A stretch of 64,000 bases of DNA from IMG/VR virus record IMGVR_UViG_3300032294_002926; one strand, written 5' to 3'. The notes beneath the pieces are model-generated. The model was not told the DNA's origin, searched no databases, and saw nothing but the letters and a program-made list of their open reading frames with translations. Each line of letters begins with the position of its first letter. The first letter of the stretch is position 1. This DNA comes from a virus (lineage: Duplodnaviria > Heunggongvirae > Uroviricota > Caudoviricetes). Positions 27,712-30,014 of the stretch are shown here, one piece after another. The translations under genes were made by a program, and so were the position numbers.

Positions 27712-28248
27712 ATGACTATTAATAAAACAATTCTGTTGAACACCGATTCTTACAAGTTTTCGCAATACAATCAATATCCCGAAGGGACTACGAATGTATA
27801 TTCCTATGTAGAAAGTCGTGGAGGTACTTGGAACCAAACTGTTTTCTTCGGACTTCAAATCTTTCTGAAAGAGTATCTGTCTAATCCTATTACTCAGGAT
27901 GATATTGATACCGCAGAACTTATTACTCAAGCACACGGAGAACCTTTCAATCGTGAAGGTTGGGAGTATATTCTTCGTGAACACGGTGGTAAGTTGCCTA
28001 TTCGTATTAAAGCAGTTCCCGAAGGTTCTGTAATTCCTGTAAAGAATGTTCTTGCGACTGTTGAGAACACTGACCCTCAATGTGCCTGGATTACAAGTTA
28101 CATTGAGACTTCACTTCTCAGGAGTATTTGGTATGGAACTACTGTTGCTACCAACTCTTATGAGAGCAAGAGGATTATTCACGATTACTTGGTGAAGACT
28201 GGAGACCCAAGTTTGATTGAGTTCAAACTGCACGATTTCGGTGCTTAA
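27712..28248 (+). CDS. nadV: Nicotinamide phosphoribosyltransferase (NadV/NAMPT), exon 1; reading frame runs into an in-frame stop inside the intron
   Basis: LLNTDSYKFSQY...KLHDFG aligns with the NAMPT N-terminus up to the conserved HDFG(Y/A)RGVSS junction. Confidence 0.8.
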   Translation: MTINKTILLNTDSYKFSQYNQYPEGTTNVYSYVESRGGTWNQTVFFGLQIFLKEYLSNPITQDDIDTAELITQAHGEPFNREGWEYILREHGGKLPIRIKAVPEGSVIPVKNVLATVENTDPQCAWITSYIETSLLRSIWYGTTVATNSYESKRIIHDYLVKTGDPSLIEFKLHDFGA

Positions 28249-29171
28249 TTAACTTCGGGCACCTAACTTTGTGAACTGCTGGAACCCCTAAGTTGCTTAG
28301 GTAATATGGAAATCAGCATCCAAGACTACTATTTTAGTAGTAAGGTTCAGAGACCATCGAAAAGGTTATTTACAAATAACACTTAGTAGAGTACACTCAA
28401 GCGAGTGGAAGCGCAAAGGCGATACTATGTATCGTAAGATATGGTCCAATCTTCATTGAAAAATGAAGCAGTTCATACTCAGCATAAATACTTCCAGACC
28501 AAAATTGTAAAATATTTATGTTGAAACTATTAGAAACTATACCTAGTTTAGAAACATTTAAGGGGTATTCGATTTCAGATGATGGTAGAATCTTTTCACA
28601 TAAGACTAACAAATTTCTGAAAACGAGTATAAGAATGGGAAATGGATGTGCTTATGGAAGAATTGGATTAAACGATTCTAACGGAATCCGTAAAACAATT
28701 TCAATTCATAGACTCGTTTGTTTAGCATTTAAATATAACCCCAACCACAAAAATCTAACTGTGAATCACATAGACGAAAACACTTTTAATAATCATATTG
28801 ATAACTTAGAGTGGATGCCTCTTTCTGAAAACATTAGATATTCTCAGGCAAACAAAAGTTATGTCGGAGACCCAGATAAACTTACATTAGAGTTTAATGA
28901 AGGAAACTACACGGTACAGGAGTTTGCCAAAAAGTATAATACTCCATTAAATACTATGTGGGATATTCTAAACAAATTAGGTTCAGTCAAAAACAACAAA
29001 AAAAGAAGAGTCTTTGGTAAAAAAATACGACTTGAAATTGCTTTAATGAGAAAATCAGGAAAAGCACTAAAAGAAGTATCTGAAAAGTATCAATGTTCTC
29101 AATCTTTTGTTTCTTTAGTTTTTAAAGAGTATGAACGGGGTATGCTTAGCGAACATGCCTGAATAACTCCG
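28246..29171 (+). mobile_element. Putative group I intron (~0.92 kb) splitting nadV, carrying an HNH homing endonuclease ORF
   Basis: The NAMPT alignment breaks after LHDFG(A) and resumes at RGVSSFESAGIGG ~925 nt later. ~270 nt non-coding structured leader; boundaries follow U (5') and G (3'). Confidence 0.55.
28518..29162 (+). CDS. HNH homing endonuclease (HNH_3 / AP2-domain type, I-HmuI-like) inside the nadV intron
   Basis: SIHRLVCLAFKYNPNHKNLTVNHIDENTFNNHIDNLEWMP is the HNH_3 core; C-terminal helix-turn-helix-like basic tail. Confidence 0.7.
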   Translation: MLKLLETIPSLETFKGYSISDDGRIFSHKTNKFLKTSIRMGNGCAYGRIGLNDSNGIRKTISIHRLVCLAFKYNPNHKNLTVNHIDENTFNNHIDNLEWMPLSENIRYSQANKSYVGDPDKLTLEFNEGNYTVQEFAKKYNTPLNTMWDILNKLGSVKNNKKRRVFGKKIRLEIALMRKSGKALKEVSEKYQCSQSFVSLVFKEYERGMLSEHA

Positions 29172-29177
29172 CGAGGA

Positions 29178-30014
29178 GTGTCCTCTTTTGAGTCTGCTGG
29201 TATCGGTGGTCTCGCACACCTTGTAAACTTCAAGGGAACGGATACAGTCACCGCTCTTCTTTACGGTAAAGAATACTACGACATTTATATGGCAGGATTC
29301 TCTATTCCCGCCAGTGAACATAGTACCTGCACCTCTTGGGGTAGGGAAGGTGAAGAAGATTCTTACCGTAATATGGTAAAACTCTACGGCAAACCTGGTT
29401 CTCTATTTGCTTGCGTAAGTGATAGTTATAACATTTACGATGCTTGTCATATGTGGGGCACTGTGTTAAAGGATGATATAATCAACTCTGGTGCAACTCT
29501 TGTAGTTCGCCCAGATAGTGGACATCCACCAGAAGTGGTAATAAATTGCCTTCAACTTTTAGACAAATATTTTGGACACACGATCAATGAGAAAGGATTC
29601 AAAGTTCTTAATTATGTTCGTGTAATTCAGGGTGATGGTATTACTCAAGATACGATTGACCGTATTCTTTATAGAGCAATGACTGCTGGTTATTCTTCAG
29701 ACAACATTGCTTTCGGTCAAGGTGGTAAACTGCTTCAGAGTATTGACCGAGACACTCAAAAGTTTGCTATGAAGTGTTCTTCTATTGAAGTTAACGGAGA
29801 GCAACGCGATGTCTATAAGAGTCCGATTACCGATATGGGTAAAGAATCCAAGAAAGGTCGTGTAACTCTCTATCGTAATGATGAAGGTTACTTCACCGAC
29901 TTGGAAGGTAGGACTGATGCGGTAGAAGTTCTTGAAACTGTATTTGAGAAAGGTGAACTGGTCAAAGAATATACCTTTGATGAGGTTCGTAAAAATGCTT
30001 CGGTGATTATCTAA
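29178..30014 (+). CDS. nadV: Nicotinamide phosphoribosyltransferase (NadV), exon 2 (true exon start ~29172 at Arg-Gly-Val; the tracked ORF starts at an internal GTG)
   Basis: RGVSSFESAGIGGLAHLVNFKGTDT... matches the NAMPT C-terminal half through to the end. Confidence 0.8.
   Translation: MSSFESAGIGGLAHLVNFKGTDTVTALLYGKEYYDIYMAGFSIPASEHSTCTSWGREGEEDSYRNMVKLYGKPGSLFACVSDSYNIYDACHMWGTVLKDDIINSGATLVVRPDSGHPPEVVINCLQLLDKYFGHTINEKGFKVLNYVRVIQGDGITQDTIDRILYRAMTAGYSSDNIAFGQGGKLLQSIDRDTQKFAMKCSSIEVNGEQRDVYKSPITDMGKESKKGRVTLYRNDEGYFTDLEGRTDAVEVLETVFEKGELVKEYTFDEVRKNASVII

What the first reader, a model, noticed from the sequence alone, without database searches (positions are those of the whole stretch)
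27712..30014. nadV (nicotinamide phosphoribosyltransferase) split by a ~0.9-kb putative group I intron encoding an HNH endonuclease
The NAMPT alignment stops at ...KLHDFG(A), runs into a stop, and resumes exactly at the next conserved residues RGVSSFESAGIGG ~925 nt downstream. The intervening DNA has a 270-nt structured leader and then an HNH_3 ORF that ends ~10 nt before exon 2. The intron begins after U and ends with G. Without splicing, NadV would be two fragments split within a contiguous catalytic region.
Basis: partly seen in the sequence, partly recalled or inferred. Interest (0 to 1): 0.7.

Follow-up and report, generated by a model that had tools for sequence, protein, structure and literature searches.

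The report
Self-splicing intron inside phage nadV
A cyanophage gene for the NAD-salvage enzyme NadV is interrupted by a 926-base self-splicing group I intron that carries its own DNA-cutting (HNH) gene; this is a well-known type of selfish element, found here in a host gene where I found no earlier report of one.

Summary
nadV exon 1 is 27712-28245, the intron is 28246-29171 (926 nt) and exon 2 is 29172-30014. Rfam Intron_gpI scores 61.3 bits (cut-off 50). P1 (GGUGCU/GGCACC, U.G at the 5' splice site), P10 (CUUCG/CGAGG) and the terminal G are all present. Joining the exons restores ...FKLHDFGA|RGVSS..., which aligns without a gap to solved NAMPT structures.

Three syntenic intron-less relatives (about 88% nt identity) are contiguous exactly where the 926 nt are inserted. 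At least seven other metagenomic lineages carry the same intron at the same site. Across them, 86 proposed base pairs are 98.9% paired, and 12 pairs show compensatory double changes (0-1 in shifted controls). These include a long-range P9.1 helix that brackets the ORF.

The 214-aa ORF resembles I-HmuI (NUMOD4 + HNH). It is intact in every complete copy and under purifying selection, as are both exons. The intron is less diverged than its exons, which indicates horizontal spread.

Verdict: a mobile IA-type group I intron with an HNH homing endonuclease. It is a new member of a known kind, so interest is modest. Splicing and cleavage are inferred, not shown.

The parts
27712..28245 (+). nadV exon 1 (178 codons, ends ...KLHDFGA)
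   Evidence: It matches Pfam NAMPT_N at E 3e-30. The boundary is fixed by intron-less relatives. dN/dS against other intron-carrying lineages is 0.1-0.17.
28246..29171 (+). Group I intron, 926 nt. It starts with an in-frame TAA and ends with the terminal G (omega-G) at 29171.
   Evidence: Rfam RF00028 scores 61.3 bits against a cut-off of 50. The intron is a clean 926-nt insertion relative to L001, L003 and L005. Homologous introns sit at the same site in L081, L083, L084, L086, L088, L089, L090, L094, L096, L098-L101.
28240..28263 (+). P1: exon GGUGCU (28240-28245) paired with the internal guide GGCACC (28258-28263). U28245.G28258 is the wobble pair at the 5' splice site.
   Evidence: Read directly from the sequence. 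The pairs are kept in 8 of 8 informative distinct sequences, apart from one mismatch in L094.
28253..28257 (+). P10 guide CUUCG, which pairs with the first exon 2 bases CGAGG (29172-29176).
   Evidence: helix 2, 100% paired. Relatives with a shorter P1 loop keep CUCG/CGAG.
28267..28468 (+). Catalytic core. P3 28267-73/28412-18; P4 28277-82/28313-18; P5 28287-88/28308-09; P5a 28292-96/28301-05; P6 28320-21/28344-45; P6a 28325-31/28335-41; P7 28352-56/28442-46; P7.1 28365-70/28375-80; P7.2 28394-98/28403-07; P8 28419-25/28429-35; P9 28451-57/28462-68.
   Evidence: The Rfam alignment, helix definitions and covariation count. Double compensatory changes occur in P5a, P6a, P8 (4 pairs) and P9 (2 pairs). 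The divergent L100 keeps every helix, with different sequences in P3, P6a, P7.1, P8 and P9.
28471..28480 (+). P9.1 5' strand GUUCAUACUC. It pairs across the ORF with 29127-29136.
   Evidence: Ten of ten pairs form in the window. Three pairs carry compensatory double changes across lineages (helix 14). L100 has GUUUGUAGU/ACUACAAAC.
28483..28490 (+). CATAAATA, a motif resembling a T4-type late promoter, 28 nt upstream of the HNH start codon.
   Evidence: ATAAATA is kept in all lineages except L100, while the flanking bases vary. The motif is under-represented in the window (28 found against 43.7 expected), and 22 of the 28 lie on the + strand. Promoter function is inferred by analogy with T4 intron ORFs (PMC2988022).
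28481..28522 (+). Hairpin (arms 28481-28493 / 28510-28522) that buries the HNH AUG at 28518-28520.
   Evidence: Found as an inverted repeat. Local minimum-free-energy folds recover it in every lineage. It is 91.5% paired but shows no compensatory changes. A role in translational repression is inferred.
28518..29162 (+). HNH homing-endonuclease gene (214 aa): an N-terminal NUMOD4 sheet, an HNH motif (H84, N96, N105) and C-terminal helix-turn-helix-like helices.
   Evidence: Pfam NUMOD4 scores 27.2 bits (cut-off 23.4); HNH_3 scores 24.2 bits, just under its 24.8 cut-off. PHROG 59 matches at 2e-38. I-HmuI 1u3e matches at E 4e-8 by sequence. An AlphaFold model (pLDDT 87) has I-HmuI as its only significant PDB match, at E 4.6e-6. 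The ORF is 214 aa and intact in all complete copies. dN/dS is 0.13-0.20.
29127..29136 (+). P9.1 3' strand GAGUAUGAAC. It lies inside the last codons of the HNH ORF, so this stretch both codes for protein and forms RNA structure.
29139..29159 (+). P9.2 hairpin (29139-44 / 29154-59), also inside the end of the HNH ORF.
   Evidence: helix 15 (one double change and two single changes, 100% paired); L100 has GGAAGAG/CUCUUCU.
29172..30014 (+). nadV exon 2 (280 codons plus stop, starts RGVSS...)
   Evidence: It matches Pfam NAPRTase at E 3e-49. The joined 458-aa product aligns from end to end with Xanthomonas NAMPT 7yqo at E 5e-166, with no gap at the junction.
30036..30068 (+). Intrinsic-terminator-like hairpin with a T run, just after the nadV stop codon.
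   Evidence: This is a consensus match only.
26011..27036 (+). Context: upstream NMN adenylyltransferase / Nudix gene (natV-like), the partner of NadV in phage NAD+ salvage.
   Evidence: Pfam CTP_transf_like plus NUDIX. The same gene order is seen in L001, L003, L005 and L098.

Best explanation
This is a mobile group I intron of the IA type (most like IA2) that interrupts nadV, the nicotinamide phosphoribosyltransferase gene of an uncultured T4-like cyanophage.

Splicing (inferred from the anatomy). In the pre-mRNA, the last six exon 1 bases (GGUGCU) pair with the intron's internal guide to form P1. A free guanosine bound in P7 attacks after U28245. The first exon 2 bases are then aligned on the same guide by P10. 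The freed exon 1 end attacks after the terminal G29171. The exons are joined into an mRNA for an intact 458-aa NadV that reads ...HDFGA-RGVSS...

Layout (read from the sequence and supported by covariation). The catalytic core occupies the first 223 nt of the intron. The homing-endonuclease ORF sits downstream of the core in the loop of a long-range P9.1 helix. Its last dozen or so codons also form the 3' strand of P9.1 and the P9.2 hairpin.

Mobility (partly supported, partly inferred). The ORF encodes an I-HmuI-like HNH enzyme. It is expected to nick or cut intron-less nadV alleles near the insertion site during co-infection, so that recombinational repair copies the intron in. The population signature of such spread is observed: presence/absence polymorphism, and an intron younger than its exons.

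Expression control (inference by analogy with the phage T4 intron ORFs). A late-promoter-like CATAAATA lies within the 5' arm of a hairpin that covers the ORF's AUG. This would limit endonuclease expression to late transcripts that lack the inhibitory arm.
For: Boundaries and ribozyme:
- Rfam Intron_gpI scores 61.3 bits against a cut-off of 50.
- P1, P10, the U.G pair and the terminal G are in place.
- There is a clean 926-nt indel relative to three syntenic intron-less relatives.

Structure conservation:
- Of 86 pairs, 98.9% are paired. Twelve pairs carry double compensatory changes, against 0-1 in the slid controls and 0 of 500 shuffles.
- The divergent L100 intron keeps all helices with different sequences.

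Host gene:
- The spliced product aligns without a gap to solved NAMPT structures, E 5e-166, and to phage NadVs in a single piece.
- Exon dN/dS is 0.1-0.17 in intron carriers.

Endonuclease:
- It matches I-HmuI by sequence and by predicted fold.
- H84, N96 and N105 align with the I-HmuI H-N-N motif. N83, H84 and N96 are invariant in 31 homologues.
- The ORF is intact at 214 aa in every complete copy, and its dN/dS is 0.13-0.2.

Mobility:
- HNH dS is about 0.9-1.0, against about 2.2 for the flanking exons, between the window and L084/L089.
- Between L084 and L089 the intron differs by 1% and exon 1 by 8.5%.
- Intron-less alleles (L001-L003, about 88% nt) are as close to the window as the intron-bearing L081 is.

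Regulation:
- The ATAAATA motif and the AUG hairpin are conserved.
Against: - No RNA or biochemical data exist. Splicing, guanosine dependence and DNA cleavage are all inferred.
- There is no P2, and I could not identify a convincing P9.0, so the assignment to subgroup IA2 is not clean.
- The Pfam HNH_3 score (24.2) is marginally below its curated cut-off (24.8).
- The residue before the catalytic His is Asn, where (from memory) I-HmuI has Asp.
- The AUG hairpin shows no compensatory changes. The late-promoter motif is absent from L100.
- P9.1 has one or two mismatches in the L088/L098 lineage.
- P1 has one mismatch in L094.
- Some of the stronger conservation of the intron could come from structural constraint rather than recent transfer.
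Confidence: 0.9

Rival explanations
1. nadV is a naturally split gene. Exon 1 and exon 2 are translated as two separate polypeptides that assemble without any RNA splicing, and the intervening DNA is simply a free-standing HNH gene cassette.
For: Gene callers on public contigs call three separate genes: NAMPT_N, HNH and NAPRTase. A GTG codon lies two codons into exon 2. A free-standing relative of the HNH gene, with no ribozyme, exists in L097.
Against: - A complete ribozyme supported by covariation lies between the two halves.
- The exon ends pair with the intron guide (P1, P10), and the cut points restore the conserved HDFGA|RGVSS motif exactly.
- The GAGGAG before the GTG directly abuts it, which leaves no spacing for a ribosome-binding site.
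- The split falls inside a contiguous, conserved catalytic motif, and the joined halves align collinearly with solved NAMPT structures.
Confidence: 0.03
2. The intron is a decayed relic that no longer splices, so nadV in this phage is a pseudogene.
For: No P2 or P9.0 was recognised. Some lineages have mismatches in P1 or P9.1.
Against: - Both exons stay open and under purifying selection (dN/dS 0.1-0.17) in several diverged intron-carrying lineages.
- All core helices are intact and 98.9% paired, with compensatory changes. That pattern indicates continuing selection for the fold.
Confidence: 0.03
3. The intron splices, but the HNH protein is no longer an active homing enzyme. It might be retained as a DNA-binding or regulatory protein, or as a splicing helper, with the intron now inherited only vertically.
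For: - The HNH_3 score is just below the Pfam cut-off.
- The family has Asn-His where (from memory) I-HmuI has Asp-His.
- JGI names some members 'Mor family transcriptional regulator'.
- The C-terminal half looks like a bipartite helix-turn-helix domain, though the fold matches are weak.
Against: - The catalytic His and both Asn residues align with I-HmuI. N83, H84 and N96 are invariant across 31 homologues.
- Purifying selection acts along the whole ORF.
- The intron is clearly younger than its exons, and it is polymorphic among close relatives. Purely vertical inheritance would not produce either pattern.
Confidence: 0.15

Closest known systems
Phage T4 nrdD (sunY) intron with I-TevII, and the T4 td and nrdB introns generally
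   Same: These are IA-type self-splicing introns in nucleotide and cofactor metabolism genes of a T4-like phage. From my own knowledge of the sunY intron, its ORF also lies 3' of the catalytic core in the P9.1 region. The intron ORFs are preceded by a late promoter placed inside, or next to, a hairpin that blocks translation from earlier transcripts (PMC2988022). They are polymorphic among related phages and spread with co-conversion of the flanking exons.
   Different: I-TevI and I-TevII are GIY-YIG enzymes, whereas this one is HNH. The host gene here is nadV. There is no detectable sequence similarity beyond the generic core. The promoter and hairpin control is only inferred here.
Pf-WMP3 DNA polymerase intron with I-PfoP3I (PMC3428280)
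   Same: [quoted passage not shown] An intron-less sister phage is known.
   Different: The host is a T7-like podovirus and the interrupted gene is the DNA polymerase. [quoted passage not shown] Splicing and nicking were demonstrated for that element and have not been tested for this one.
I-HmuI, from the Bacillus phage SPO1 DNA polymerase intron (PDB 1u3e)
   Same: It is the best and only significant structural relative of the ORF product: sequence E 4e-8 and fold E 4.6e-6, with 145 aligned positions at 28% identity. The two share an N-terminal beta-sheet DNA-binding module, an H-N-N catalytic motif and C-terminal helical DNA-binding parts.
   Different: Identity is only 28%. The protein here is 40 residues longer at the C-terminus. 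The target gene is different. That I-HmuI nicks one strand is recalled from the literature; whether this enzyme nicks or cuts is unknown.
Cyanomyovirus S-PM2 psbA group I intron with the free-standing endonuclease F-CphI (PMC6083498)
   Same: It is a group I intron in an auxiliary metabolic gene of a T4-like cyanophage.
   Different: That intron carries no ORF, and its partner endonuclease is free-standing and belongs to a different catalytic family (Endo VII-like). Here the endonuclease gene is inside the intron.
PhiPA3 intron-encoded endonuclease used in phage-phage competition (PMC11620839)
   Same: It is an intron-borne homing endonuclease in a conserved phage gene that can cut the intron-less allele of a co-infecting relative.
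   Different: A competitive benefit was shown experimentally there. Here it is only a possibility. The host phage and the target gene also differ.

Membership tests
Group I intron (Rfam RF00028) | Covariance-model score above the curated gathering score | tested here: met
   61.3 bits against 50, E 4e-13, full model 1-253. Homologues score 60.9-73.5 bits.
Group I intron (Rfam RF00028) | P1 helix between the end of the 5' exon and an internal guide, with a U.G wobble at the 5' splice site | tested here: met
   GGUGCU (28240-45) pairs with GGCACC (28258-63), with U28245.G28258. The U.G pair is present in 8 of 8 sequences.
Group I intron (Rfam RF00028) | Terminal guanosine (omega-G) at the 3' end of the intron, and P10 pairing of the 3' exon with the guide | tested here: met
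   G29171 is the last intron base, as fixed by the intron-less alleles. P10 is CUUCG/CGAGG, 100% paired in relatives.
Group I intron (Rfam RF00028) | Conserved core P3-P9, including the P3/P7 pseudoknot, supported by covariation | tested here: met
   Of 86 pairs, 98.9% are paired. Twelve pairs have double changes against 0-1 in the slid controls. P7 varies on one side only, and P3 is invariant in alignment A2. P3 is compensated in L100 (CCUUGUG/CGCAAGG).
Group I intron (Rfam RF00028) | Guanosine-dependent self-splicing | not testable with these tools
   This needs in-vitro transcription with a GTP chase, or RT-PCR from infected cells.
Subgroup IA2 (phage-type) group I introns | Extra P7.1 and P7.2 hairpins between P7 and the 3' strand of P3, plus peripheral P9.1 and P9.2 (definition recalled from Michel and Westhof's classification) | tested here: met
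   P7.1 is 28365-80 and P7.2 is 28394-407. P7.1 has a different but still paired sequence in L100. P9.1 and P9.2 are supported by covariation.
Subgroup IA2 (phage-type) group I introns | Presence of P2 and a recognisable P9.0 | tested here: inconclusive
   Only 3 nt separate P1 from P3, so there is no P2. I found no convincing P9.0. The subgroup label is therefore 'IA, IA2-like' rather than certain.
HNH homing endonucleases of the I-HmuI type | HNH (beta-beta-alpha-metal) catalytic motif with a conserved His and two Asn residues | tested here: met
   H84, N96 and N105 align with I-HmuI H75, N87 and N96. N83, H84 and N96 are invariant in 31 homologues. The Pfam HNH_3 score of 24.2 bits is 0.6 bits under its cut-off. 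PHROG 59 matches at 2e-38.
HNH homing endonucleases of the I-HmuI type | Overall fold resembling I-HmuI, with the N-terminal NUMOD4 DNA-binding module | tested here: met
   NUMOD4 scores 27.2 bits against a cut-off of 23.4. The model has pLDDT 87. 1u3e is the only PDB match with E<0.001 (E 4.6e-6, probability 1.00).
HNH homing endonucleases of the I-HmuI type | Site-specific nicking or cleavage of the intron-less allele near the insertion site | not testable with these tools
   This needs purified protein and an intron-less target, for example the junction sequence of L001.
Mobile (homing) intron | Presence/absence polymorphism at one precise site among closely related genomes | tested here: met
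   L001, L003 and L005 lack exactly 28246-29171. All of the 80 best IMG/VR nadV relatives are uninterrupted. The intron-bearing loci all carry it at the same codon boundary.
Mobile (homing) intron | Intron phylogenetically younger than, or discordant with, its host gene | tested here: met
   HNH dS is 0.92-0.97 against about 2.2 for the exons (window vs L084/L089). For L084 vs L089, HNH dS is 0.023 against 0.38 for exon 1. That pair has 9 differences in the 918-nt intron (1%), against 8.5% divergence over the last 520 nt of exon 1.
Mobile (homing) intron | Co-conversion tract in the flanking exons | tested here: inconclusive
   All intron-bearing alleles begin exon 2 with CGAGG(A/T)GT, whereas the intron-less ones have CGTGGTGT, AGAGGAGT or CGCGGGGT. 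This could equally reflect selection for P10. In L084 vs L089, exon 2 dS over the first 36 codons is 0.07 against 0.38 for exon 1, but only 108 nt of exon 2 are available.
NAMPT / NadV (nicotinamide phosphoribosyltransferase) | NAMPT_N plus NAPRTase domains, collinear with solved enzymes across the junction | tested here: met
   Pfam matches at E 3e-30 and 3e-49. The product aligns to 7yqo at E 5e-166 over residues 6-455, reading FKLHDFGARGVSS on both sides with no gap. It has 62% identity to the Synechococcus phage B3 NadV in a single piece.
Phage NAD+ reconstitution pathway 2 (NARP2: Nampt + Nmnat) | Nampt and Nmnat homologues encoded together in one phage | tested here: met
   A cytidylyltransferase-like / NUDIX gene at 26011-27036 lies 0.7 kb upstream of nadV. 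The pathway definition comes from bioRxiv 10.1101/2024.02.11.579819. Anti-defence activity was not tested here.

The most novel reading that the evidence does not exclude
The intron endonuclease may be more than a selfish passenger. It could work as a weapon between co-infecting cyanophages. By cutting the intron-less nadV of a rival, it would convert or disable the rival's NAD+-reconstitution (NARP2-type) counter-defence gene at the moment NAD+-depleting host immunity acts. That would give intron carriers a competitive advantage, as was shown for the PhiPA3 intron endonuclease (PMC11620839). A conserved late-promoter and hairpin switch would time this attack.
Probability: 0.15. Interest if true: 0.6.

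Novelty: new member of a known kind. Interest (0 to 1): 0.33.

Why it matters
For annotation: public pipelines call this locus as three unrelated genes (NAMPT_N fragment, 'hypothetical' or 'Mor regulator', NAPRTase fragment). Surveys of phage NAD+ salvage or NARP2 genes would therefore miss or miscount these phages.

For biology: this adds nadV to the list of conserved phage genes colonised by group I introns. I found no earlier report in four literature searches and one review, nor in 50,697 deposited phage genomes by DNA search.

As a data set: the locus offers intron-plus and intron-minus alleles, at least five diverged intron lineages, a free-standing relative of the endonuclease, and a stretch that must satisfy both a protein and an RNA fold. 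That makes it useful for studying how such elements spread in uncultured cyanophage populations.

It does not change how these elements are thought to work.

Tried and rejected
1. Megablast of the locus, and of 48 kb of the window, against deposited phages found no close relative. Only RNR and psbA genes matched, at 73-77%. The source phage is not in that collection.
2. An exact-sequence look-up of the HNH protein found nothing on record.
3. My first reading of P5 as CCUAAG/CUUAGG is broken in the L084 group. It was replaced by P5 (CC/GG) plus P5a (GUUGC/GUAAU), which covaries.
4. I tested for a T4-style autorepressor operator, meaning similarity between the homing site and the region over the putative late promoter. 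The similarity was not above shuffled controls, so I dropped the idea.
5. Covariation in the hairpin over the AUG: none was found. I keep the hairpin only as a conserved, plausible element.
6. A hairpin spanning the 3' splice site has one compensatory change, and 78 of 500 shuffles do as well. I list it only as noticed.
7. One search used wrong coordinates and should be ignored.
8. A custom covariance model was not built.
9. The Rfam 'evalue' scan missed the intron in L101 although L101 is 94% identical to the window. This is a filter artefact, not an absence.
10. I looked through a spread of 60 deposited phage nadV hits for other split genes. The two-piece matches there are longer single CDSs or frameshifts, not evident introns. 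This check was not exhaustive.
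Full report
**What is in the sequence**

The + strand ORF 27712-28248 ends ...EFKLHDFGA followed by TAA. It matches the N-terminal NAMPT domain at E 3e-30. From 29172 the same strand reads RGVSSFESAGIGG... through to the stop at 30014, and this part matches the NAPRTase catalytic domain at E 3e-49. Between the two lie 926 nt: a 272-nt non-coding 5' part, a 214-codon ORF (28518-29162), and 9 further nt. GC content falls from about 0.40 in the exons to 0.36 in the 5' part and 0.32 in the ORF.

**It is a group I intron**

A scan of the whole 64-kb window against Rfam gives a single Intron_gpI match, at 28184-28468. 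It scores 61.3 bits against a gathering score of 50 (E 4e-13) and covers the full model. Reading the sequence gives the elements that define the splice sites:
- The last six exon bases, GGUGCU (28240-28245), pair with GGCACC (28258-28263). U28245.G28258 is the wobble pair at the 5' splice site (P1).
- The adjacent guide bases CUUCG (28253-28257) pair with the first exon 2 bases CGAGG (29172-29176) (P10).
- The intron ends in G29171.

The core helices P3 to P9 can all be written as canonical pairs. Two extra hairpins, P7.1 and P7.2, lie between P7 and the 3' strand of P3, which from memory of the Michel-Westhof scheme is the hallmark of subgroup IA. There is no P2, and I found no convincing P9.0, so I call the intron 'IA, IA2-like'. 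Downstream of P9, a 10-bp helix (28471-28480 with 29127-29136) closes around the whole ORF (P9.1). It is followed by a short hairpin, P9.2 (29139-29159). An energy-minimised fold with the ORF interior deleted recovers P1, P4, P6a, P7.1, P8, P9, P9.1 and P9.2 without any constraints.

**The boundaries are exact**

IMG/VR holds uninterrupted nadV genes 81-90% identical in protein to the joined exons. In three of them (L001, L003, L005) BLAST breaks at window 28245|29172 while the subject coordinates remain adjacent (4528|4529, 4488|4489, 4534|4535). The natV-like gene upstream is shared, so these are homologous loci. The intron-less junction reads GGTGCT|CGTGGT, and moving the boundary by one base in either direction would not reproduce it.

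The joined 458-aa product aligns over residues 6-455 with Xanthomonas NAMPT (7yqo, E 5e-166). It reads FKLHDFGARGVSS opposite the identical 13 residues, with no gap. It also aligns in one piece with the NadV of Synechococcus phages B3 and B23 at 62% identity.

**Comparative support**

Short exact patterns from the intron retrieved the same element, at the same codon boundary of nadV, from other viral and metagenomic contigs. These are L081 (86% nt identity over 2.5 kb), the group L083/L084/L086/L089/L090/L096 (about 74-78%), and L094/L088. The encoded protein led to L098/L099, L100 and L101. L101 is 94% identical to the window.

On an alignment of nine distinct sequences, the 86 pairs I proposed are 98.9% paired. 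Twelve pairs carry changes on both sides, against 0-1 when the 3' partners are slid by 1-3 columns, and no shuffle out of 500 reaches the observed values. The double changes fall in P5a, P6a, P8, P9, P9.1 and P9.2. My initial P5 pairing was broken in one lineage, and I replaced it with the covarying alternative.

The most divergent member, L100, has an endonuclease only 57% identical and a roughly 50-nt expansion of P5. It keeps every helix, with different sequences in P3, P6a, P7.1, P8, P9, P9.1 and P9.2. The 3' strand of P9.1 and all of P9.2 lie within the last codons of the ORF. Several of the compensated changes are third-position changes there, so this stretch is constrained both as protein and as RNA.

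**The ORF**

The ORF matches NUMOD4 above the Pfam threshold and HNH_3 0.6 bits below it. It also matches PHROG 59 'HNH endonuclease' at 2e-38, and I-HmuI, the homing endonuclease of the SPO1 DNA polymerase intron, at E 4e-8. H84, N96 and N105 align with the H-N-N residues of I-HmuI.

An AlphaFold model built on 31 homologues (mean pLDDT 87) has I-HmuI as its only significant PDB match (E 4.6e-6). The C-terminal helices give weak matches to bipartite helix-turn-helix DNA-binding domains. The ORF is exactly 214 codons and uninterrupted in every complete copy. Its dN/dS is 0.13-0.20. I conclude it is a functional DNA endonuclease, probably a nicking enzyme like its relatives. That last point is an inference.

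**Evidence that the element moves**

- Both exons are under purifying selection in the intron carriers (dN/dS 0.1-0.17), so nadV is in use and the intron must be removed.
- Between the window and L084/L089, synonymous divergence is about 0.9-1.0 in the endonuclease gene but about 2.2 (saturated) in the flanking exons.
- Between L084 and L089, the 918-nt intron differs at 9 positions (1%), while the last 520 nt of exon 1 differ by 8.5%.
- Intron-less alleles are as close to the window's exons as the nearest clearly distinct intron-bearing lineage, L081.
- All of the 80 best IMG/VR nadV relatives are uninterrupted.

This is the pattern expected for a homing intron spreading among already diverged alleles. 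Part of the higher conservation of the ribozyme is, of course, structural constraint. All intron-bearing alleles start exon 2 with CGAGG(A/T)GT and the intron-less ones do not. This could be co-conversion or selection for P10, and I cannot separate the two.

**Expression of the endonuclease (inferred)**

CATAAATA at 28483-28490 lies 28 nt upstream of the AUG. ATAAATA is kept in all lineages but L100, while the neighbouring bases vary; in L088, L094 and L098 it reads TATAAATA. From my own knowledge, the T4 late-promoter consensus is TATAAATA. In the window, ATAAATA is under-represented (28 found against 43.7 expected), and 22 of the 28 occurrences are on the coding strand.

The motif sits in the 5' arm of a hairpin (28481-28493 / 28510-28522) whose 3' arm contains the AUG. 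Every lineage folds into an equivalent hairpin. L100 lacks the motif but has its own hairpin over a GGAG and its start codon. [quoted passage not shown] There are no compensatory changes in this hairpin, and a test for a T4-like operator was negative. I therefore present the model as likely but unproven.

**Context**

The window comes from an uncultured T4-like cyanophage. It carries psbA with a PhotoRC-II element, and many tRNAs. Its nearest isolates are Synechococcus phages B3 and B23, and nothing in the deposited collection is closely related. nadV follows a Nmnat/Nudix gene and a macro-domain gene. Nampt together with Nmnat is the pair defined as NARP2, a phage pathway that rebuilds NAD+ against NAD+-depleting defences (bioRxiv 10.1101/2024.02.11.579819).

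**Comparison with what is known, and novelty**

Mechanistically this is the textbook mobile phage group I intron. The closest relatives are:
- the T4 nrdD/sunY intron, for layout and regulation;
- the Pf-WMP3 polymerase intron with I-PfoP3I, a cyanophage IA2 intron with an HNH nickase (PMC3428280);
- I-HmuI, for the protein.

DNA similarity to deposited phages is limited to 120-170 nt of core, at about 71-73% identity, shared with introns of Bacillus, Flavobacterium and Listeria phages. I found no report of an intron in nadV in four full-text searches and a dedicated review. A non-exhaustive look at deposited nadV genes showed none. The element is therefore a new member of a known kind, and public pipelines currently annotate it as three separate genes.

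**Verdict**

I put confidence at 0.9 that this is a splicing-competent group I intron, and at about 0.75 that the ORF is an active homing endonuclease. Interest is modest (0.33). The most novel possibility left open is that the endonuclease serves in competition between cyanophages by hitting a rival's NAD+ counter-defence gene (probability about 0.15).

Noticed in passing
window 29166-29179: A 5-bp hairpin, ACUCC-GCGA-GGAGU, spans the 3' splice site, with the terminal G and the first exon base in its loop. It overlaps P10 by two bases, so the two pairings cannot fully coexist. It is kept in all lineages, and L100 has a compensated version (ACACC/GGUGU). With only one such change, 78 of 500 shuffles do as well. 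Its role, if any, is unexplained.
   Followed up: partly
window 27037-27567: The ORF between the Nmnat/Nudix gene and nadV is a macro-domain protein (ADP-ribose 1''-phosphate phosphatase 6lfu, E 6.5e-7; Pfam Macro matches only at E 0.007). The cluster is thus Nmnat-Nudix, macro domain, NadV. In L098 the corresponding position holds a NADAR-domain gene plus a further 161-aa ORF.
   Followed up: partly
L097 361-1029 (NCBI GCA_975848745.1): A homologue of the intron endonuclease (P0022, 222 aa; 64% identical in the homology search) is free-standing between small unrelated ORFs. No ribozyme or nadV lies nearby. It may be a relative of the form that invaded the intron.
   Followed up: partly
L088 1-60 versus L094: L088 and L094 are identical over the first 330 nt of the endonuclease gene, yet the L088 ribozyme has a different P6 and lacks P7.1 upstream of the shared P7.2. 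This suggests ribozyme modules are exchanged by recombination. L088 is cut at the contig end.
   Followed up: no
L087 1333-2008 and L092 994-1668: Each of these two small metagenomic contigs carries two group I introns about 60 nt apart on the same strand (74-79 bits each). One copy in each contig shares an identical 30-nt stretch (window intron positions 144-173, around P7.2) with the nadV intron. The host gene was not identified.
   Followed up: no
L093 13348-14126: A related group I intron (62.7 bits) carrying an HNH ORF lies directly upstream of a gene with a T7-like single-subunit RNA polymerase motif (...IHDSFG...).
   Followed up: no
L094 1135-1160: A synonymous exon change (GGT to GGC) creates a C.A mismatch in P1 of this otherwise intact intron. 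It is an example of host-gene drift acting against the ribozyme.
   Followed up: no
window 48070-48189: Rfam reports a tRNA match 120 nt long (39.7 bits) that ARAGORN does not call. It could be an interrupted or unusual tRNA.
   Followed up: no
window 50381-50478 and about 50.5-51.5 kb; tRNAs at 20258-25875 and 50125-50292: A PhotoRC-II RNA element lies next to a psbA gene, and there are nine or more tRNA genes. Together these identify the window as a T4-like cyanophage with no close relative among deposited phage genomes.
   Followed up: partly
window, whole: ATAAATA, the core of the T4-type late promoter, occurs 28 times against 43.7 expected, and 22 of the 28 are on the + strand. This fits a functional motif that is avoided elsewhere.
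   Followed up: no
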